Shown piece after piece: positions 35,631-45,511 of a stretch of DNA of 64,000 nt (positions are counted from its first letter, which is position 1; each line of letters begins with the position of its first letter). A program made the position numbers and the translations under genes. This stretch comes from Planctomycetota bacterium (lineage in GTDB: Bacteria > Planctomycetota > UBA1135 > UBA2386), in NCBI GenBank assembly GCA_965228735.1, contig OZ245838.1, positions 4,032,001 through 4,096,000 of the forward strand, read 5' to 3'. Under the pieces are notes generated by a model. It saw nothing but the letters and a program-made list of their open reading frames with translations. It had not been told where the DNA came from and made no database searches.

Positions 35631-36941
35631 TCAGCGTCGCCGGGGCGCTCGGCCCTTGGGCGCGAACAGGACGAACCACGTGCTGAGGGCGGCGGTGAGC
35701 CGCAGTCCTTGGATCCAGTTGATGTACGGCACGAGCGCATCCTTGTCGTCCGGCCCCGCGGCCACGAGTTCCGCGAAGCGCGCTTCGACGGCGAACGCCC
35801 ACCAGACCCAACCGACGAACAACGCCGCCGCAACGAACTGCATGACCCGCCGCCCCCAACCGGGCTGGAACAGACCGATCCCGGCGATGGGCAGCAACAA
35901 CAGCCACCAGAACAGCCAGCCGCCACGGGACCAGATGGCGAGCGGACCGAACAACGCGAACCCGCTCACGGTCAGCGCGCCGGCCAGGCCGAGCCCGAGC
36001 AGCACCGCGTCGAGACGGCTGCGCGGATCGAGCGCGTGCCGCCCGAGCGGGTGCAGCAGGAGCAGCAGGTTGAAGAACGGCGTCGCGCACGCCGTGAACA
36101 ACACGAAGAACAGCCACGCGTAGCTCACCACCTCACCGGCTGTCTGGTAGCCGCCATCGCGCAAGGCCTGGCCGCCGAAGCGCGCGACGAGCCACACGCC
36201 GACGAGGATCTGGATCTGCCGCCCGCGCGGAAACCGGTTGAGCCACAGGAACCACCCGAGCACGAGCCGATAGAGCGGGTTCTTCGCCTTGAGGGCTTCG
36301 GCGAGACCCTGCCGCGACGAGGCCAGCGTCGGGTCACGCCTCAGCGCTTCCTGGAAGTGTTGCAGCGCGCCGTCGACGTCCTTCTGCTGCAGCAGCGCGA
36401 ATCCGCGCGCCTGATGCGTGTACGGATTGTCGGGGTCGCGCATCAACGAGGCATCGAGCGTGTCCGACGCCTCGTTGCCGCGCCCCATGTTGGTGAGCGC
36501 GACCGACCGCAGGTTGAGACAGTCCGAGTCCTCCGGGTCGATCGCGAGCCCGGCCTCTGCAGCGGCGAGCGCGTCCGACCACTTCCGCCCCGACAAGTGG
36601 ATCTGCGCGGCGATGCGGTGCCCGCCCACGTCCTCCGGGTCGATCGCGATCGCGTGAGTGATGGCCGCCGTGGCCTCGTCGAGGCTGCCGCGCTCGTGAT
36701 GCACGAGCGCGAGAGCGTGATGCGTGATCGGCTCGTCCGGCGCGAGCCCGACCGCGGTGCGGGCCGATTCGAGGGCGCGGTCGACCTCCCCGAGCGCGCT
36801 CTGCGCGAGCGCGATGAACGCGTGGGCCACACCGTTCTCGGGCACCTCGACGAGGTGCGCGCGGAACTGCTCGATGCACAGCTCCCAACGTTGCTGCTGA
36901 TACAGCAGCGCGCCGCGCTGGAACGTCGCTTCGGCCGTCAT
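35631..36941 (-). CDS. TPR-repeat protein with C-terminal multi-pass membrane domain (paralog 3)
   Basis: Multiple TPRs (AVGLAPDE, AIAIDPED, GLAIDPED, ALRRDP), junction GLAEALKAKNPLYR, then several TMs. Confidence 0.88.
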   Translation of the reverse strand: MTAEATFQRGALLYQQQRWELCIEQFRAHLVEVPENGVAHAFIALAQSALGEVDRALESARTAVGLAPDEPITHHALALVHHERGSLDEATAAITHAIAIDPEDVGGHRIAAQIHLSGRKWSDALAAAEAGLAIDPEDSDCLNLRSVALTNMGRGNEASDTLDASLMRDPDNPYTHQARGFALLQQKDVDGALQHFQEALRRDPTLASSRQGLAEALKAKNPLYRLVLGWFLWLNRFPRGRQIQILVGVWLVARFGGQALRDGGYQTAGEVVSYAWLFFVLFTACATPFFNLLLLLHPLGRHALDPRSRLDAVLLGLGLAGALTVSGFALFGPLAIWSRGGWLFWWLLLLPIAGIGLFQPGWGRRVMQFVAAALFVGWVWWAFAVEARFAELVAAGPDDKDALVPYINWIQGLRLTAALSTWFVLFAPKGRAPRRR

Positions 36942-38122
36942 TGCCGTTTCCCGCCATCGAACCAGCCGAGAACCGCGGCGGCCGAGTGCGAAGCCTTACC
37001 GACGAGCTCACGAACGCCGCCCGACCCTTGCCGAAGCTGGACCTCGCGAACGCCGGGTGAGAGGGCGAAGCGGACGACGACGATCATGAACAGAGTGACG
37101 ATAACGCCGTACATCACCGGGCACAGGTCGGCCCCGAACGGCGTCAGCTGAGCCAAGGTCAGAAGCGCCGCAACGACCGCCGTCACCACCGTTGCACCGC
37201 GCAGAAACCACTCGCTCGAGGGCACGACCACGCGTGCGAGGTCGTGGCGAAACACGAGCCAATCCTGCGCAATCCTCGTCCCGGAGAACGAGAGAATCAC
37301 GAGAACGGGTAGGCCCGAGAAGTTCATCAAGCCGGCCTCGACCAACTTGGCGCCACTCATCCAGATCGCCATGATCAGCCCAACGCACCAGGCATCCGGC
37401 AAGGCCGCCCTCTGGCGCGCCCGTTGCCGAATCGCCTCGGCGAGGCTCTCGCGCGTCCACTCGTCGTTCGGATCCGCCGCGAGCGCAGTTCGGAACCAAC
37501 GCTCGGCAACCGCTGGCCGGTCTTGGCGCAGCGCGGCGTCCGCGACGCGACGGTGGACCGCGAGGGAATCGGGCGCAAGTCGCAGCGCTGCCCTCACGAC
37601 CTTGTCCGCCGCACCATGCCGTTCGAGCGCCCGGAGAAGATCGATCTTCTCGACGCGGAACGACACGTTCTCGGGGTCCATCGCGAGCGCCACGTCGATC
37701 TCCGCCAGGCCTTCACCGGGCCGGTCCAGCGCATCGAGCAATTCGGCCTTGATCGCGTGCATGTAGGCGCTCTCTGGCCAGAGCTCGATCGCGCGATCGA
37801 AACACGCGACCGCGCTCTCGGCATCACCGTCGGACCACAGCACGATCCCGCGCGTGTAGTTCGCCCACGCGCTCTCGGGATCGATCACGAGCGCGCGCTC
37901 GGACGTCGCCCGCGCCGCGTCGTGGTCGTCCAACCGAGACTGGACGAAGGCCAGGATAGTGAGGCCATGCACCGAGTCCGGATGCGCGGCCAGGCCGCGC
38001 AACGCGAGCGCCGCAGCTTCGCGATACCGACCGAGTTCGCTGAGCTGGAACGCCCGATCGAAGTCCGCCTCTGCGGCGTCGTTGTCACCCTCGGCCGCAG
38101 GCACCAGGCCGCCTGCGCTCAC
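36938..38122 (-). CDS. TPR-repeat protein with C-terminal membrane domain (paralog 2)
   Basis: GTG 38122 (GTGA overlap); TPRs (ALVIDPES, AIELWPES, ALAMDPEN, ALAADPND); ~4 TMs. Confidence 0.82.
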   Translation of the reverse strand: MSAGGLVPAAEGDNDAAEADFDRAFQLSELGRYREAAALALRGLAAHPDSVHGLTILAFVQSRLDDHDAARATSERALVIDPESAWANYTRGIVLWSDGDAESAVACFDRAIELWPESAYMHAIKAELLDALDRPGEGLAEIDVALAMDPENVSFRVEKIDLLRALERHGAADKVVRAALRLAPDSLAVHRRVADAALRQDRPAVAERWFRTALAADPNDEWTRESLAEAIRQRARQRAALPDAWCVGLIMAIWMSGAKLVEAGLMNFSGLPVLVILSFSGTRIAQDWLVFRHDLARVVVPSSEWFLRGATVVTAVVAALLTLAQLTPFGADLCPVMYGVIVTLFMIVVVRFALSPGVREVQLRQGSGGVRELVGKASHSAAAVLGWFDGGKRQ

Positions 38123-39291
38123 CGGAACACGCCCTTCCAGATCGAGAACATCACGATCGTGATGCCGACCGTGATCCACGCGCCGCGCGTCTTACGGCGA
38201 TCATCCTCACCGCCGACACCGACGACCATTCCGCCGATCGCGAGAACCACGGTCATCGTCGTCGCCGCGACGGCGACGCTGCGAGCGCGAGGGATTGGCT
38301 CCGCACCGAGCGCCATCGTGACCGCGCCGCTGCCCCCAACGATCACGTAGGCCGCGATCGCCGCCGCGATGACCTTCTGATAGCCGTACAGCGCGTGGCG
38401 GCCGATCGGGTGCGCGAGCAGCAGAACGTCGGAGAGCGCCGTCGGGACCAGCAACGCCGCCATCACGAGCGCCCGATGGAACGAATCCTCGAACAGCCCG
38501 AGCCCCGCGAGCGCGATCATCGTCACCGCAAAGACCAGCCATGGGGAACCCGAGCGAACCTGCCGCGCCACCCAGAGCCGCAGCGCCAGGAACGGCCGAT
38601 ACAGCCGGTTCTGCGCGCGCAGCGCATCGATGAGTCCTTCGCGCGCTTGCGAGTCCGCGTGGTCCATGCCGAGCGCAGCCTGGAACAACTCCATCGCGCG
38701 TTCGGCGTCGCCACCCCGCAACGCGGCGCTGCCCGCGCGCCGGTGGACACCACGCGCGCCGGGATCGAGCCGCAAGACCTCGGCCACGACCTCGTCGGCG
38801 GCAGCGTCGCGCCCGAGCTCCTGCAGCAGATCGATGCGCACGAGCCGGTACTCCACGCTCTCGGGTTCGAGACGCAGCGCGACCTGCACCGGTTCGAGCC
38901 CCGCCTTGGGGCGGCCTGCTGCCCCGAGGAGCTCGGCCTTCAGAGCGTGAAAGTCAGCGTGCTCCGGCAGGATCGCGATCGCGCGATCGATGCTCTCGAC
39001 CGCCGCGTCGAGATCGCCCTTGGCCCACAACACGCTGCAGTGCGTGCTGTGCGACCACGGGTCATCGGGCGCCAGTCCGAGCGCGCGCCGGCTCGTCGCG
39101 AGCGCGCTCTGCACGTCGTTCTGCCGCGCCTGCGAGAACGCCAGCAAGTTGAGCGCCGGCACATTGTCCGCATCGATCGCGAGCGCCTGCATCGCCGCCT
39201 CCGCCGCCGCCTGGTCCCGGCCCATCCGGCTCAGCTCTTCCGCCTTCTGCAGGAACGCGCCCAGCGGCTCGCGGTGGCCGCCAGCACTCAC
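38119..39291 (-). CDS. TPR-repeat protein with C-terminal membrane domain (paralog 1)
   Basis: GTG 39291 (GTGA overlap with the ATPase stop); TPRs; junction GLIDALRAQNRLYR; ~5 TMs. Confidence 0.82.
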   Translation of the reverse strand: MSAGGHREPLGAFLQKAEELSRMGRDQAAAEAAMQALAIDADNVPALNLLAFSQARQNDVQSALATSRRALGLAPDDPWSHSTHCSVLWAKGDLDAAVESIDRAIAILPEHADFHALKAELLGAAGRPKAGLEPVQVALRLEPESVEYRLVRIDLLQELGRDAAADEVVAEVLRLDPGARGVHRRAGSAALRGGDAERAMELFQAALGMDHADSQAREGLIDALRAQNRLYRPFLALRLWVARQVRSGSPWLVFAVTMIALAGLGLFEDSFHRALVMAALLVPTALSDVLLLAHPIGRHALYGYQKVIAAAIAAYVIVGGSGAVTMALGAEPIPRARSVAVAATTMTVVLAIGGMVVGVGGEDDRRKTRGAWITVGITIVMFSIWKGVFR

Positions 39292-40637
39292 AGCTTGAGG
39301 TAGTCCTTGAGGTCGTCGTAGAGACCCGCGTCGTTGGCGTAGAGCACGTAGTTCTTCGCCGTGGCGAACCACTCGCTCGTCGTCGGCTTCTGCGCCTTCG
39401 TGGCCTTGAGCAGGTCCTTGGTGACGAGCGGCTCGGGTACGCCGCTCTGAATCGCGTCGTCGAGCTTGGCCTCGATCGCGCGATCGACGACCGCCTTGAG
39501 ATCGGCGCCGGAGTAGCGGTCGGTCTTGGCGGCGACCGCCTCGAAATCGACGTCGCGCTGCGGTTTGCCGGCCATCATCAGGCGCAGGATCGCGACGCGC
39601 GCGGGCCGGTCCGGCGGCGGCACGAAGATCACGCGGTCGAAACGCCCCGGGCGGCGAAACGCGCTGTCCATGTGCCACGGCGCGTTGGTCGCCGCGAGCA
39701 CGAGCAGCCCCTCGTTGTCCGCCTGCATGCCGTCGAGCTCGGCGAGGAACTGGTTGATCGTCTGCCGCCCGGCGCTGTTCTTCATGTCGTTGCGGCTCGC
39801 GCCGAGCGCGTCCACCTCGTCGAAGAACAACACGCACGGCGTGTTCTGCCGCGCGGTCTCGAAGATCGAGTGCAGGTTGCGCTCGCTCTTCCCGATCCAC
39901 ATGTCGAGCACGTCGTGGATGCCGATCGCCAGGAAGCCCGCGTCGACCTCGCCGGCCGTCGCCTTCGCGAGGAACGTCTTGCCGCAGCCCGGCGGTCCGT
40001 ACATGAGGATCCCACCGCCGACCTTCTTGCCGTACGCCTGGTAGAGGTCAGGCCGCTGCAGCGGCAGCACGATCTTCTTGTTGATCTGATCCTTGAGCCC
40101 GTCGAGCCCGCCGACGTTGACGAACTTGACGTCCGAGCGAACCGGACGCAGCTTGCTCGGATCCGCGCTGTCGTCGTCGCCGCCGCCGGCCTGCCGCAGC
40201 ATGCCGTCGACGAGCTCGTCGTCCTCCGCCATGCCCTGGAGGCTCACGCCGAGCCGCTCGCCGAGCTCGTCGTCGACGAGCGACTCATCGGCCTCGATCG
40301 CTTTTCGATAGCTCCGCACCGCGCCGTCGACGTCGCCCTCCGCGAGCATGAGCCGCGCGAGCTCGACCCGGGCGCGGCCGCTGCCGTTCTGCACGAGCTG
40401 CTCGAGGACGACATGGGCGGCCGAGTTCTTGTTGCGAGCGCGGTAGGTCTTCGCGAGCAGCAGATGCCCGACCTCGGAATCCGGCACGATCTTGAGCAGC
40501 GCCAGCAGCTCCTTCTCCGCGTCCTCGTAGTGGCCGTAGGCGAACAACGTCTCCGCCAGGTGCTGGCGAAGGGGGCCATTGTCGGGGCTGGCTTCGAGCG
40601 CAGCCCGCAGCGAACGGATCGTGGCGTCGGCATCCAT
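39288..40637 (-). CDS. Classical-clade AAA ATPase with N-terminal TPR domain
   Basis: ATG 40637. TPR N-terminus; VGGLD, YGPPGCGKT, pore loop DMWIGKSE, FFDEVD, NQFLAELDG, AATNAPW, RRPGRFD, YSGADL. Confidence 0.94.
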   Translation of the reverse strand: MDADATIRSLRAALEASPDNGPLRQHLAETLFAYGHYEDAEKELLALLKIVPDSEVGHLLLAKTYRARNKNSAAHVVLEQLVQNGSGRARVELARLMLAEGDVDGAVRSYRKAIEADESLVDDELGERLGVSLQGMAEDDELVDGMLRQAGGGDDDSADPSKLRPVRSDVKFVNVGGLDGLKDQINKKIVLPLQRPDLYQAYGKKVGGGILMYGPPGCGKTFLAKATAGEVDAGFLAIGIHDVLDMWIGKSERNLHSIFETARQNTPCVLFFDEVDALGASRNDMKNSAGRQTINQFLAELDGMQADNEGLLVLAATNAPWHMDSAFRRPGRFDRVIFVPPPDRPARVAILRLMMAGKPQRDVDFEAVAAKTDRYSGADLKAVVDRAIEAKLDDAIQSGVPEPLVTKDLLKATKAQKPTTSEWFATAKNYVLYANDAGLYDDLKDYLKL

Positions 40638-40718: not shown

Positions 40719-42128
40719 ATGGTCTTCTCCAGCAGCGTCTTCCTGTTCGCCTTCCTGCCGGCGTTCCTGCTGCTGTACTGGCTCAGCCCGCGCCCGTGGC
40801 GCAGCCTGACGATCGCCGTCTCCAGCTTCGTGTTCTACGGCTGGTGGCGCGCCGACTTCGTGCTGCTGCTGCTGTTCAGCGCCGTCGTCGACTACTGGAT
40901 CGGCGGGCGGATCGTGCGCGCCCACGCGGCCGGCGCGACGGGGCGACCCGGCCGCTGGCTGTTGCTCTCGCTCATCACCAATCTCGGCCTGCTCGGCTGG
41001 TTCAAGTACGCGAACTTCGGCGCCGACACGTTCCGTGAGCTGCTGCGCGCGCTCGGCTTCGCCGGCGACTTCGCGTGGGTGGACGTCGTGCTGCCCATCG
41101 GGATCTCGTTCTACACGTTCCAGACGATGAGCTACACGATCGACCTGTACCGCCAGCAGGTGCGGCCAGCCGAGCGCTTCATCGACTTCCTCTGCTACGT
41201 GTCGATGTTCCCGCAGCTCGTCGCGGGTCCGATCGTGCGCTACTCGCTCATCGCGGACGAACTGCGCGACCGCCGAACGACGCTGGCCGGCATCTACCGC
41301 GGCGTCCTGTTCTTCCAGATCGGACTCGTGAAGAAGGTGCTCGTCGCGGACGCGCTCGCGCCCTTCGCCGACCGCGCGTTCGACATCCCGGGCGCGATCG
41401 AGCTCGGCACGACGCACGCATGGCTCGGCGCGGTCGCCTACGCGTTCCAGATCTACTTCGACTTCTCCGGCTACAGCGACATGGCGATCGGACTCGGGCT
41501 CATGCTCGGGTTCCACTTCCCGATCAACTTCGACTCGCCGTACCGCGCGGACTCGATCACCGACTTCTGGCGCCGCTGGCACATCTCGCTGTCGACGTGG
41601 TTGCGCGACTACCTCTACGTGCCGCTCGGCGGCAACCGGCGTGGCCCGGTCCGGACCTACGTCAACCTCGCGCTCACGATGCTGCTCGGCGGGCTCTGGC
41701 ACGGCGCCGCGTGGAACTTCATCGCCTGGGGTGGCTACCAGGGCTGCTGGCTCATCGTCGAACGGGCGACCGGCAAACGGCCGTGGTACGGTGCGGCGCC
41801 GCGACTCGTCCGGATCGCCGTGACGTTCGTGCTCGTGCTGTTCGGCTGGGTGCTGTTCCGCGCCCACGACCTCGGTCACGCCATGAACTACGCCGGCGCG
41901 ATGCTCGGACTCGGCAATGGCGAGACGGACTTCGCGGCGCTCCGCCCGGGACCGTGGGCCGACATGTTGATCGCCGGCCTCGTCGTCTGGCTGCTGCCGA
42001 CGAGCCAGCGCCTCGTGCCGCGCGCGGGCCTCGCCGTCGTGCTGCTGCTGCAACTGCTCTTCGCGTTCGCCGTCGCGGTCGTGCAGCTCGCGCCCGAAGA
42101 GATCCCGTTCCTCTACTTCCGCTTCTGA
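40719..42128 (+). CDS. MBOAT O-acyltransferase (AlgI/PatA/DltB family)
   Basis: MVFSS..FLF.FLP, LPIGISFYTFQ, FPQLVAGPI, QIYFDFSGYSDMAIG, FWRRWHISLS, GLWHGA, FLYF.F. Confidence 0.96.
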   Translation: MVFSSSVFLFAFLPAFLLLYWLSPRPWRSLTIAVSSFVFYGWWRADFVLLLLFSAVVDYWIGGRIVRAHAAGATGRPGRWLLLSLITNLGLLGWFKYANFGADTFRELLRALGFAGDFAWVDVVLPIGISFYTFQTMSYTIDLYRQQVRPAERFIDFLCYVSMFPQLVAGPIVRYSLIADELRDRRTTLAGIYRGVLFFQIGLVKKVLVADALAPFADRAFDIPGAIELGTTHAWLGAVAYAFQIYFDFSGYSDMAIGLGLMLGFHFPINFDSPYRADSITDFWRRWHISLSTWLRDYLYVPLGGNRRGPVRTYVNLALTMLLGGLWHGAAWNFIAWGGYQGCWLIVERATGKRPWYGAAPRLVRIAVTFVLVLFGWVLFRAHDLGHAMNYAGAMLGLGNGETDFAALRPGPWADMLIAGLVVWLLPTSQRLVPRAGLAVVLLLQLLFAFAVAVVQLAPEEIPFLYFRF

Positions 42129-42135
42129 GTCCACG

Positions 42136-43659
42136 ATGAGCCGAGCCGAGATCGCAGTCACGCACGCGGACGACGCACCCGCGGCCGAACCGTTGCAGCG
42201 GGTCGCCCGCGGCACGGCGCTGGGCGCATGCGCCGCGACGCTGCTCGGCTTCGCCGCGGTCGAGGCGTTCGGCCCCGACCCGGTCGCGAATGCACGCGCG
42301 CAGGTGCTCGCGCACTCGGCCGAGCGCGCGCCGTCCGTCGACCCCGCCTGGCTCGACGAATCGCCCGCAAAGGTCGCACGCCAGGACGCACCGCCGCGGC
42401 TCCTGGCCGCGTGGCATCGCACCCCGCAGTTCATGTACCTGTGCGAGGTGAACGAGACCGTGCTGCGCGCGCTGTGGCAGCCCGGCGTCGGCCTCGGACC
42501 CGATGCCCCGCGCGAGTTCGACACGTTCTCGATGCCGGGCGGCGCGCCGCACCCGATCTTCCGCTACCCGCGGTCGACGACGATGCCCGACGGGCTCACG
42601 ACCAACCGCTTCGGTTTCCGCGGCCCCGACGTCGCGCTCGACAAGCCGGCGGACACGGTGCGCATCGCGTTCGTCGGCGCGTCGGCGACGGTCGGCAATC
42701 ACTTCCTCGAGTGGAGCTACCCCGAGTTCGTCGGCCACTGGCTCACGCTCTGGGCGCGCGCGAACGACCTGGGCGTCGACTTCGAGGTGCTCAACGCCGG
42801 GCGCGAGTCGATCCAGTCGCGCGACATCCGCGCGATCGTCGAACACGAGGTGCTGCCGCTCGCCGTCGACTACGTCGTCTACTACGAGGGCCAGAACCAG
42901 TTCGGCGCGCCGTCGCTCCGGCGCCACGTCGAGGTCGACGGCGATGCCGGAACGACGCCGCCCGCGGACCTCGTGCTCGACCTCGCCGCCGCCGATTCGC
43001 TGCAGCCGCACTGGCTCGACGTCCTGTGCCGCGACGTTCACAACGCGCGCCGCCTGCGACGACTGCTCGGCGTGCATGCCGACCTGCCAGAGCCACCGAA
43101 ACCGCAGCAGAGGCTGCAGCTGCCTGCCGGTCTGACCGCGACCGATCCCGACCTCGACCGCGCGCGGGAAGTGCTCGAGCTCGGAACGATCCTCGCCGAC
43201 CTCGACGCGATGAAACGCGCGTGTGACGCCCAGAGCACCCGCTTCGTGATGTGCTCGTTCGACCGGCTCGTGCGCGATGGCATGCGCGTCGACCTCGCGC
43301 CGGCGCCCTCGGTCTACAGCCGACTCAACGGCGAGTACTGGCCGCTCAGCTACGAGACGATCGCAGCGCTCGACGAACTGCAGAACCGCTACTTCGAGGC
43401 CTGGGCCGCGGCCCGCAACGCCCCGTTCCTCGACATCGCCGCGGCCATGCCCGACGAACCCGCGCTCTTCACCGACCCCGTGCACTCGACGGAGAGCGGC
43501 GTGCGCCTGCGAGCCTGGGTCGTGTTCACCGAGCTCGTGCGCGTGATCGAAGCCGACCTCGCAGCCGACCGCGTGCCCGTCCCCGACACCGAACCGACCC
43601 CGCGCCACCCGTTCCTGCAGCCGGCCCGCCGGCTCACGGCGGAAGACCTGGGCGGTTGA
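42136..43659 (+). CDS. Membrane-anchored SGNH-family protein, probable periplasmic acyl-transfer partner
   Basis: NRFGFRG, IAFVGASAT (block I), LNAG, YEGQN, DPVH; 7 bp downstream of the MBOAT gene. Confidence 0.78.
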   Translation: MSRAEIAVTHADDAPAAEPLQRVARGTALGACAATLLGFAAVEAFGPDPVANARAQVLAHSAERAPSVDPAWLDESPAKVARQDAPPRLLAAWHRTPQFMYLCEVNETVLRALWQPGVGLGPDAPREFDTFSMPGGAPHPIFRYPRSTTMPDGLTTNRFGFRGPDVALDKPADTVRIAFVGASATVGNHFLEWSYPEFVGHWLTLWARANDLGVDFEVLNAGRESIQSRDIRAIVEHEVLPLAVDYVVYYEGQNQFGAPSLRRHVEVDGDAGTTPPADLVLDLAAADSLQPHWLDVLCRDVHNARRLRRLLGVHADLPEPPKPQQRLQLPAGLTATDPDLDRAREVLELGTILADLDAMKRACDAQSTRFVMCSFDRLVRDGMRVDLAPAPSVYSRLNGEYWPLSYETIAALDELQNRYFEAWAAARNAPFLDIAAAMPDEPALFTDPVHSTESGVRLRAWVVFTELVRVIEADLAADRVPVPDTEPTPRHPFLQPARRLTAEDLGG

Positions 43660-44723: not shown

Positions 44724-44830
44724 GCGGCCGTTCTACCGCGCGCAGCGCCTCGCCCCAACGAGACCGGGGATCGCTATGGCCGCGAGCGCCGGCGCGACTG
44801 CAAATTCGACAGTCGCGCGTGCCGACGATC

Positions 44831-44872
44831 TGTCACGATGACGGCCCCGGAACGGGGGCGTCATCCCGACGC
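44831..44872. promoter_or_regulatory. Candidate enhancer-binding-protein sites (two GTCA-N3-(T/C)GAC inverted repeats)
   Basis: GTCA-CGA-TGAC at 44832-44842 and GCGTCA-TCC-CGACGC at 44858-44872, upstream of the sigma54 promoter. Confidence 0.4.
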
Positions 44873-44943
44873 GGTGCCGGCAGTGATCCCGAGCCTCGCG
44901 AGACACCGGGACTTGCGCGCGCCATTCGCGCCTCGCGTCGGAC

Positions 44944-44959
44944 TGGCACGCTCGTTGCA
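44944..44959 (+). promoter_or_regulatory. sigma54 -24/-12 promoter
   Basis: TGGCAC-GCTCG-TTGCA, full consensus with correct spacing, upstream of the Hsp20 gene. Confidence 0.8.
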
Positions 44960-45061
44960 TCCCGGTGCCCGAACTCGCTGTGCATGTCGAATCGACGCGC
45001 GCGGTGCGCGTCGTGCTGCACAGCCATCCTGTGGTCCTTTGCGACAACAACGGAGAAAGAC

Positions 45062-45511
45062 ATGCAGTACATGACCGAACGTCCGACCCGTCTCGCCGGG
45101 GGATTGCTCGATGTGCCCCGGACCGTGGACGATCTCTTCCAACGCTTCTGGGGTGACGTGCACCAGCCCCGAACCGCCAACTCCTGGCGGCCGCACGTGG
45201 ACGTCGTGGAGACGCCGGAGGCCTACCTGCTCCGGGCCGAGATGCCGGGGGTCAACCCGGATGACATCGAGATCACGCTCGCCGGCGACGTGCTGACGAT
45301 CCGCGGCGAGAAGGTCGTCGAGAACACGCTCGAAGGCGAGAGCTGGTGCCTCAGTGAACGCACCGGCGGCCGCTTCGAGCGCAGCTTCAAGCTGCCCGGA
45401 CCGCTCGCGGACGACCAGGTCGAGGCCGAGTCCCGACACGGCATTCTCGCGATCCGGGTGCTCAAGGCCGAGCAGGCCAAGGCACGTCGGATCAAGATCC
45501 GGTCGGCCTGA
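45062..45511 (+). CDS. Hsp20/alpha-crystallin small heat-shock protein
   Basis: WRPHVDVVET, AEMPGV, LTIRGEK, ERTGGRFERSFKLP, HGIL; GGAG RBS before ATG 45062. Confidence 0.95.
   Translation: MQYMTERPTRLAGGLLDVPRTVDDLFQRFWGDVHQPRTANSWRPHVDVVETPEAYLLRAEMPGVNPDDIEITLAGDVLTIRGEKVVENTLEGESWCLSERTGGRFERSFKLPGPLADDQVEAESRHGILAIRVLKAEQAKARRIKIRSA

What the first reader, a model, noticed from the sequence alone, without database searches (positions are those of the whole stretch)
35631..40637. TPR-AAA ATPase with a tandem array of three TPR-membrane partners: candidate membrane-protein extraction or remodelling system
Seen: a four-gene operon joined by 4-bp stop/start overlaps. The ATPase has a single classical AAA module (aromatic pore loop MWIG, SRH RRPGRFD) with N-terminal TPRs and no protease domain or TM. 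Three paralogs follow, each with cytoplasmic TPRs, a related junction (LAEALKAKNPLYR / LIDALRAQNRLYR / LAEAIRQR) and divergent multi-pass membrane domains. Established: classical-clade AAA proteins (Vps4, Msp1, Cdc48, FtsH) thread substrates through the pore and are recruited by adaptors. Inference: a bacterial dislocase or unfoldase with interchangeable membrane receptors; a stress or anti-phage role is possible but unshown.
Basis: partly seen in the sequence, partly recalled or inferred. Interest (0 to 1): 0.8.

Follow-up and report, generated by a model that had tools for sequence, protein, structure and literature searches.

The report
Unfoldase with a variable membrane-partner array
A four-gene bacterial operon encodes a ring-type protein-pulling ATPase that likely docks on a conserved membrane partner; that core pair is widespread and was mentioned once in print without a test, but here it carries two extra partner copies, one of which differs sharply between close strains.

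Summary
In detail: four minus-strand genes joined by 4-bp overlaps, an intact single-module TPR-AAA ATPase, and three TPR-membrane paralogs. The core is ATPase plus the last gene (TM3, six TPRs and six predicted membrane helices). It is conserved across phyla: 27 of 27 closest database loci and 11 of 11 core-type relatives have the partner beside the ATPase. Ravi et al. 2024 noted such a dyad in one passage as 'VPS4-like', and this scan found it before on other DNA. It fails the motif tests for Vps4 (no MIT, Cdc48-type arginine-finger motif, no ESCRT-III found); its sister group is a Micrarchaeota TPR-AAA family, though nesting with CdvC is not rejected. The three partners are not equal. TM1 and TM2 belong to a shorter accessory clade, not a local triplication of TM3. 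In a strain 96-97% identical in flanking DNA, TM1 is 95% identical as protein but TM2 only 54%, and about 1.14 kb extra, not identified, sits after the ATPase. Neighbours are mostly housekeeping, sometimes chaperones, rarely defence. Best reading: a membrane-docked unfoldase for stress quality control with a fast-turnover accessory array; binding and substrates are untested.

The parts
39288..40637 (-). TPR-AAA ATPase, 449 aa: about 3.5 TPRs (residues 3-129), acidic linker, one classical AAA module with lid, family-specific C-terminal helices
39975..39998 (-). Walker A GPPGCGKT
   Evidence: invariant in 26 of 26 rows of A1
39891..39902 (-). aromatic pore loop 1 MWIG
39636..39656 (-). arginine-finger motif RRPGRFD, of the RxGR[FL] type seen in Cdc48 and FtsH, not the RRFxxR type of the Vps4/CdvC controls
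39288..39380 (-). conserved C-terminal segment specific to the bacterial family (motif in 38 of 39 core and 44 of 53 extended rows, 0 of 6 Micrarchaeota rows); candidate docking element, untested
39266..39286 (.). site where a close strain (runs X14, X17) has 1163 letters in place of these 21; content not identified, size fits one more partner gene
38119..39291 (-). TM1: accessory ('B') TPR-membrane paralog, 390 aa, 5 hydropathy peaks, keeps 20 of 35 family-conserved residues
36938..38122 (-). TM2: second accessory paralog, 394 aa, 3 hydropathy peaks, 10 of 35 conserved residues, low codon adaptation; strain-variable slot
35631..36941 (-). TM3: canonical ('A') partner, 436 aa, six TPRs, junction helix, six long predicted membrane helices

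Best explanation
The operon encodes a soluble single-ring AAA motor that likely docks at the inner membrane on the conserved TPR-6TM protein TM3 and would thread membrane-bound proteins or complexes through its pore to unfold, extract or disassemble them, probably as an optional stress quality-control module. Shown: intact motor motifs, no protease domain, no N-terminal anchor, a conserved membrane partner kept with the ATPase across phyla. Inferred from the AAA class (own knowledge and PMC7018516 passages on Msp1): hexamer and pore threading. Inferred from gene context only: physical docking, the substrate class and the stress role. TM1 and TM2 are accessory copies from an older second partner lineage; they likely add or modulate docking sites or substrate range, and TM2 turns over quickly.
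For: Motifs invariant or nearly so in 26 homologs. Partner on the same strand just downstream in 27 of 27 core loci, membrane-domain profile hit in 24 of 27; in the wider family 46 of 52 loci have an adjacent TPR-profile ORF, 43 of 52 with a hydrophobic segment; background 0.8% per 3 kb. Five of 5 family genomes whose partner stands apart still hold the ATPase elsewhere. TM3 model pLDDT 94.5, with a TPR superhelix (Z 23.5, rmsd 2.5, 216 aligned to the OGT TPR domain) followed by six long helices. Proteostasis neighbours: htpG co-directional after the partner in 9 of 30 family/order loci (kin, so one event may explain it), hrcA-dnaJ upstream in 4 Streptomyces loci, single cases of Lon, MsrA, Bax-inhibitor and SPFH genes.
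Against: No experiment, substrate or expression data exist in my searches. The module is patchy (13 of 61 related genomes at E 1e-90), unlike core quality-control genes. No third gene is conserved across phyla, and htpG lies about 84 kb from the operon in this genome. Six of 52 extended loci show no partner hit, including L038, which falls inside the core clade. The AlphaFold model of the AAA core was of low confidence, so it adds nothing on ring geometry.
Confidence: 0.5

Rival explanations
1. The TPR-6TM partner is itself the substrate: it would oligomerise in the membrane as a scaffold, seal or pore, and the ATPase would take it apart, as Vps4 does with ESCRT-III. This follows the analogy of Ravi et al., where the partner displaces snf7.
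For: Strict pairing with one membrane protein family; PspA and Snf7 not found in the 93%-complete own genome; the ATPase groups with the Vps4/meiotic clade inside a 98/96 branch, and a clade with archaeal CdvC is not rejected.
Against: TPR solenoids are usually adaptors, not polymer subunits (own knowledge); the partner has no ESCRT-III likeness in any family scan; partners in the wider family differ widely in membrane-segment number.
Confidence: 0.2
2. A defence or conflict system: the membrane TPR proteins would sense or counter foreign proteins (phage or toxin), with the ATPase as activator or remover, and the accessory array would vary under an arms race.
For: Patchy spread with likely transfer (a Nonomuraea copy inside the core clade); TM2 alleles 54% identical, 29% in the membrane part, between strains 96-97% identical in flanking DNA, plus extra DNA in the array.
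Against: Only 7 of 133 neighbour ORFs from 43 loci hit PADLOC at 1e-10, and five of these are generic cross-hits (radical SAM, Lon, helicase, WD40); no PADLOC family fits the partners, and the IetA hit is partial and far under the NCBIfam cut-off (113 of 510 bits); no effector domain; the core pair is well conserved.
Confidence: 0.15
3. On the array only (compatible with any role of the core): TM2, and perhaps TM1, are duplicates under weak selection that are born and lost by recombination in a tandem array, with no specialised function.
For: TM2 keeps 10 of 35 conserved residues, its last membrane helix is poorly hydrophobic, and its codon adaptation is in the lowest 4-13% of the genome; most genomes manage with one partner.
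Against: Both known TM2 alleles are open full-length frames; the difference between them far exceeds the strain background, so it needs allele replacement or old paralogy rather than drift; TM1 is 95% conserved between the strains, and B-type genes persist in 7 family genomes.
Confidence: 0.35

Closest known systems
'VPS4-like AAA+ ATPase followed by TPR + 6TM protein' dyad (Ravi et al. 2024, mSystems, PMC11237479; exemplar ACB74714.1, Oter_1429)
   Same: Gene order ATPase then TPR+6TM; four of its five listed phyla (Cyanobacteria, Bacteroidetes, Verrucomicrobia, Planctomycetes) appear in my core loci, including an Opitutaceae locus with this layout.
   Different: The paper labels the N-terminus MIT; here it is TPR. 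It describes one partner and gives no function test; in the passages I saw it does not mention accessory paralogs or strain variation. I could not retrieve the exemplar protein itself.
Vps4 / CdvC (ESCRT-IV)
   Same: Single AAA module, helical N-terminal adaptor domain, C-terminal helix after the lid; same 98/96 branch in the tree; CdvC profile matches residues 100-422 at 183 bits (cut-off 650).
   Different: No MIT or Vps4_C hit, RxGR[FL] instead of RRFxxR, no ESCRT-III found nearby or in the genome.
Cdc48 / p97 / VAT (D2 module)
   Same: Best sequence and fold matches in the PDB are to p97 D2 (about 195 bits per domain); same pore-loop and arginine-finger type; p97 extracts membrane proteins via membrane adaptors (own knowledge).
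   Different: One AAA module, TPR head instead of the double-psi barrel N domain; outside the canonical D1 and D2 groups.
Msp1 / ATAD1
   Same: Single-ring, protease-free AAA; Msp1 extracts membrane proteins (PMC7018516 passages).
   Different: Msp1 is anchored by its own helix and has tandem RR fingers; here the TPR starts at residue 2 and the anchor would be a separate protein.
Micrarchaeota TPR-AAA proteins (loci L087/L102, L121, L130, L285, L288, L289; not a described family in my searches)
   Same: TPR head plus one AAA module; sister clade at 100/99 support.
   Different: Lack the bacterial C-terminal motif (0 of 6); no TPR-membrane partner gene seen in the three loci listed.
IetAS anti-phage system
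   Same: Partial AAA similarity to IetA.
   Different: 113 bits against a cut-off of 510; the operon has no protease gene.

Membership tests
Ravi et al. 2024 ATPase / TPR-6TM dyad | single-module classical AAA gene followed by a TPR + 6TM gene | tested here: met
   TM3 has six TPRs and six long helices; TM1 and TM2 lie between it and the ATPase
Ravi et al. 2024 ATPase / TPR-6TM dyad | phyletic spread in Cyanobacteria, Bacteroidetes, Verrucomicrobia, Nitrospirae, Planctomycetes | tested here: met
   four of five phyla among the 80 loci kept; Nitrospirae not seen in that capped list
Ravi et al. 2024 ATPase / TPR-6TM dyad | homology to the exemplar ACB74714.1 | tested here: inconclusive
   exemplar not retrieved; an Opitutaceae homolog is 53% identical and has the same gene order
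Vps4/CdvC | N-terminal MIT domain (criterion i of PMC10936438) | tested here: not met
   no MIT among 12 Pfam families at E 0.001; eight-helix TPR-like head; MIT found in 9 of 12 control proteins
Vps4/CdvC | ESCRT genes in the neighbourhood (criterion ii of PMC10936438) | tested here: not met
   no Snf7 or PspA among 133 neighbour ORFs; neither found in the 93%-complete own genome
Vps4/CdvC | tandem RR arginine fingers (RRFxxR) | tested here: not met
   0 of 39 core rows; 69 of 85 single-domain control rows have it
Vps4/CdvC | nested inside the Vps4/meiotic clade | tested here: inconclusive
   best tree places it outside (meiotic clade 93/92) but a clade with archaeal CdvC is not rejected (p-AU 0.214)
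Cdc48/p97 | two AAA modules and a double-psi barrel N domain | tested here: not met
   one AAA domain, TPR head
FtsH | membrane anchor and M41 protease domain in the same chain | tested here: not met
   (204 of 600 bits, AAA part only); FtsH is a separate clade
Msp1/ATAD1 | N-terminal membrane anchor | tested here: not met
   TPR match from residue 2
IetAS | IetA over cut-off with an adjacent protease gene | tested here: not met
   113 of 510 bits; no protease family in the operon
classical AAA unfoldase | ATP-driven threading through a hexamer pore | not testable with these tools
   motifs intact; activity needs an assay

The most novel reading that the evidence does not exclude
A bacterial p97-like membrane-extraction machine, of a lineage shared with DPANN archaea, that uses a swappable cassette of membrane adaptors: one fixed partner plus accessory slots whose alleles and number change between strains under selection, for example to remove foreign proteins inserted in the membrane.
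Probability: 0.15. Interest if true: 0.8.

Novelty: new variant of a known kind. Interest (0 to 1): 0.48.

Why it matters
Bacteria are thought to remove membrane proteins mainly with FtsH, which couples extraction to degradation (own knowledge). A widespread protease-free AAA motor with a dedicated membrane partner would be a bacterial counterpart of p97 or Msp1 extraction and is easy to test in cultured Streptomyces, Flavobacterium or Calothrix strains that carry the pair. This locus adds a natural experiment: a fixed partner beside accessory copies that vary between strains, which could show which surface binds the motor and which selects substrates. The core pair itself is already on record, so the gain is in the array and in the corrected placement of the ATPase.

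Tried and rejected
Complex prediction of the ATPase TPR head (1-150) with the TM3 TPR region (1-235) gave 'no answer' (score 0.00); it is not used either way. No RNA holder was listed; no evidence on expression. The AlphaFold model of the AAA core was poor, so the Foldseek result is used only as agreeing with the sequence search. The fold search of TM3 was filled by TPR matches, so the membrane domain was barely tested; the Atlas gave only unnamed clusters under 0.9. No sigma-70-type promoter, and terminator-like sites at chance level. The exemplar ACB74714.1 was not found among the best 120 listed homologs of an Opitutaceae query; 'Oter_1429' has no hit in the main texts searched. Rejected: local triplication of TM3 (p-AU 0.001); a conserved third gene across phyla; a frameshift in TM2 (single frame against P0365 over residues 12-345); a defence-island setting. 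No proteasome ATPase, katanin-labelled or Msp1-labelled row was in the trees (one search found no PAN), so placement against those is untested. The content of the extra 1.14 kb in runs X14 and X17 remains open.
Full report
Observation. The four genes are as described: ATPase 39288-40637, TM1 38119-39291, TM2 36938-38122, TM3 35631-36941, all on the minus strand and joined by GTGA, GTGA and ATGA overlaps. The operon is bounded by a divergent MBOAT gene (40719) and a convergent LigT-like phosphoesterase gene (ends 35624). GC content is like the surroundings. The organism is likely a planctomycete, judged from source names of close homologs; its genome is one 7.19-Mb contig, 93% complete.

The ATPase. 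Pfam finds TPRs, one AAA domain and AAA_lid_3, and no MIT, Vps4_C or protease (12 families at E 0.001). No NCBIfam family reaches its cut-off. Walker A, Walker B, the sensor-1 asparagine, the aromatic pore loop and both finger arginines are invariant or nearly so in 26 homologs. The predicted head has eight helices at pLDDT about 90 or more, about 3.5 TPRs; the AAA core was modelled poorly. Best PDB matches are p97/Cdc48 D2. I collected outgroups from Micrarchaeota genomes, metagenome Vps4/CdvC loci (MIT in 9 of 12 and Vps4_C in 8 of 12 checked) and bacterial FtsH. In a 46-row careful tree the bacterial family is one clade (100/99), sister to Micrarchaeota TPR-AAA proteins (100/99 together); Vps4, CdvC and spastin-like rows form another (93/92); both lie in an unresolved 98/96 group apart from canonical Cdc48 D1, D2 and FtsH (97-row quick tree). 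Rows were a hand-picked subset of about 340 domains, and PAN and Msp1 were absent. Against my reading: a clade of TPR-AAA plus archaeal CdvC is not rejected (p-AU 0.214). The finger motif is RxGR[FL] in 38 of 39 core rows (one is a miss) and RRFxxR in none, while 69 of 85 single-domain control rows have RRFxxR. So it may work like Vps4 or p97 but is not a member of either by their defining features. The direction of any archaea-bacteria transfer is not shown.

The partner. A model of TM3 (119-row alignment, pLDDT 94.5) shows six TPRs, a junction helix and six long helices, with the conserved FNLLLLLHPxGRHAL segment between the second and third; the TPR part matches OGT (Z 23.5, rmsd 2.5, 216 aligned). 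The membrane part was barely tested by that search.

Co-occurrence. I split these by ATPase profile score: 27 core (500 bits or more), 52 extended, 1 archaeal. All 27 core loci have a partner-profile hit just downstream on the same strand; 24 hit the membrane-domain profile (two are cut by contig ends, L028 misses; L018 is split in two ORFs). They span Planctomycetota, Verrucomicrobiota, Bacteroidota, Cyanobacteriota, Acidobacteriota and one actinomycete. Of 52 extended loci, 36 have a TPR-profile ORF downstream, 10 upstream, 6 none. Background in the own genome is 0.8% of 3-kb bins. Among 61 related genomes 13 have the ATPase; of the 12 relatives, 11 are core-type and all 11 have the partner adjacent, one convergent. 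Adjacency is not strict: in several family genomes the partner stands apart, and 5 of 5 such genomes checked hold the ATPase elsewhere. Kin are not independent.

The array. TM3 is the canonical partner: 35 of 35 family-conserved positions by definition, 23-32 in six other A-type rows. TM1 and TM2 fall in a separate, shorter B clade (SH-aLRT 99) with genes from G001, G138 and G112, where a B gene also sits between ATPase and A gene, and from G005, G017 and G152, where it lies elsewhere; that is 7 of 91 family genomes searched, a lower bound for this query. A local triplication of TM3 is rejected (p-AU 0.001; quick tree, long branches). TM2 groups with TM1 and is absent from the G001 locus, so it likely arose from a TM1-like gene. 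Three tandem partners were seen only in this window among the loci fetched; two occur in G001, G138, G112, G005 (L118), L050 and L076.

Strain variation. Contigs of four runs from four studies were laid on the window. Record 9 of X14 is 96.4% identical over TM3 and flank, 96.5% over TM1 and 97.3% over the ATPase and flank, but in TM2 only 238 letters align, at 84.5%. Proteins P0394 and P0365 lie on a contig of the same length; they are 94.9% identical to TM1 and 53.5% to TM2 (71% in the TPR part, 28.7% in the membrane part), and the slot is 27 letters shorter, as 385 against 394 aa requires. X14 and X17 both carry 1163 letters where the window has 21, between the ATPase stop and TM1; the size fits one more gene of about 380 aa, but its content was not seen. 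X18 (91.5-93.2% in flanks) has no insert and again a more diverged TM2 (81-85% where it aligns). TM2 also has low codon adaptation (lowest 4-13%) and keeps 10 of 35 conserved residues. This fits either selection for new alleles or birth and death of weakly selected duplicates.

Neighbourhoods. I scanned 133 neighbour ORFs from 43 loci (heuristic ORF calls; 4 of 137 dropped as parts or antisense frames of the partner). Most are housekeeping or unknown. Seven hit PADLOC at 1e-10; five are generic cross-hits, two (L336, L343) may be real, and L034 has a HipA pair. No unrelated-locus control was run for this rate. htpG follows the partner on the same strand in 9 of 30 family or order loci, and four Streptomyces loci lie behind hrcA-dnaJ. 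These are weak hints of a proteostasis role.

Literature. [quoted passage not shown] I take this to be the same dyad from layout and spread; the exemplar was not retrieved. PMC10936438 (passages) gave the Vps4 criteria; PMC7018516 (passages) the Msp1 mechanism and tandem fingers. Six searches (listings only for other papers) showed no experimental study and no mention of the accessory paralogs; subscription papers are mostly not covered. Earlier scan notes describe the same dyad in other genomes; I had read the paper before seeing them.

Verdict. A real, conserved, untested module already on record, here with an accessory, strain-variable partner array. Most likely a membrane-docked unfoldase or dislocase (0.5); partner-as-substrate (0.2) and defence (0.15) remain open. 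New variant of a known kind; interest 0.48.

Noticed in passing
L087:4838-6280, L121:1324-2742, L130:1114-2778 (Micrarchaeota phylum sample): A family of TPR plus single-AAA proteins in Micrarchaeota is the sister group of the bacterial family (100/99), without the bacterial C-terminal motif or a TPR-membrane neighbour in the three loci listed.
   Followed up: partly
L035:2521-3853, L044:9224-10722, L049:8687-10479: In some Pseudomonadota the ATPase is followed by a small multi-pass membrane gene and then a TPR protein with about two membrane helices: a three-gene form.
   Followed up: partly
L046, L055, L061, L068 (Streptomyces): The ATPase-partner pair lies downstream of hrcA and dnaJ on the same strand, suggesting possible heat-shock co-regulation in that lineage.
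   Followed up: partly
L335, L336, L340, L341, L345, L346, L348, L349, L350: htpG (Hsp90) follows the canonical partner on the same strand, also where the ATPase has moved away.
   Followed up: partly
L116:5966-8993 and L352:306-2453: ATPase and partner are convergent rather than co-directional in two family genomes.
   Followed up: no
L018:9306-10576: The partner is split into two ORFs (TPR part and membrane part), by a frameshift or an assembly error.
   Followed up: no
L103, L124 (Micrarchaeota): A second, about 900-aa double-AAA family whose two modules both group away from canonical Cdc48 D1 and D2.
   Followed up: no
window 44819-45511 (+): An ORF that reads like a small heat-shock protein (recognised by eye, not scanned) lies 4 kb from the operon.
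   Followed up: no
window 40719-43659 (+): MBOAT acyltransferase gene with a 507-aa neighbour lacking Pfam hits; the same pair flanks the operon in G001.
   Followed up: no
own genome G000: No PspA/IM30 match was found in this 93%-complete genome, though 9 of 14 control genomes have one.
   Followed up: partly
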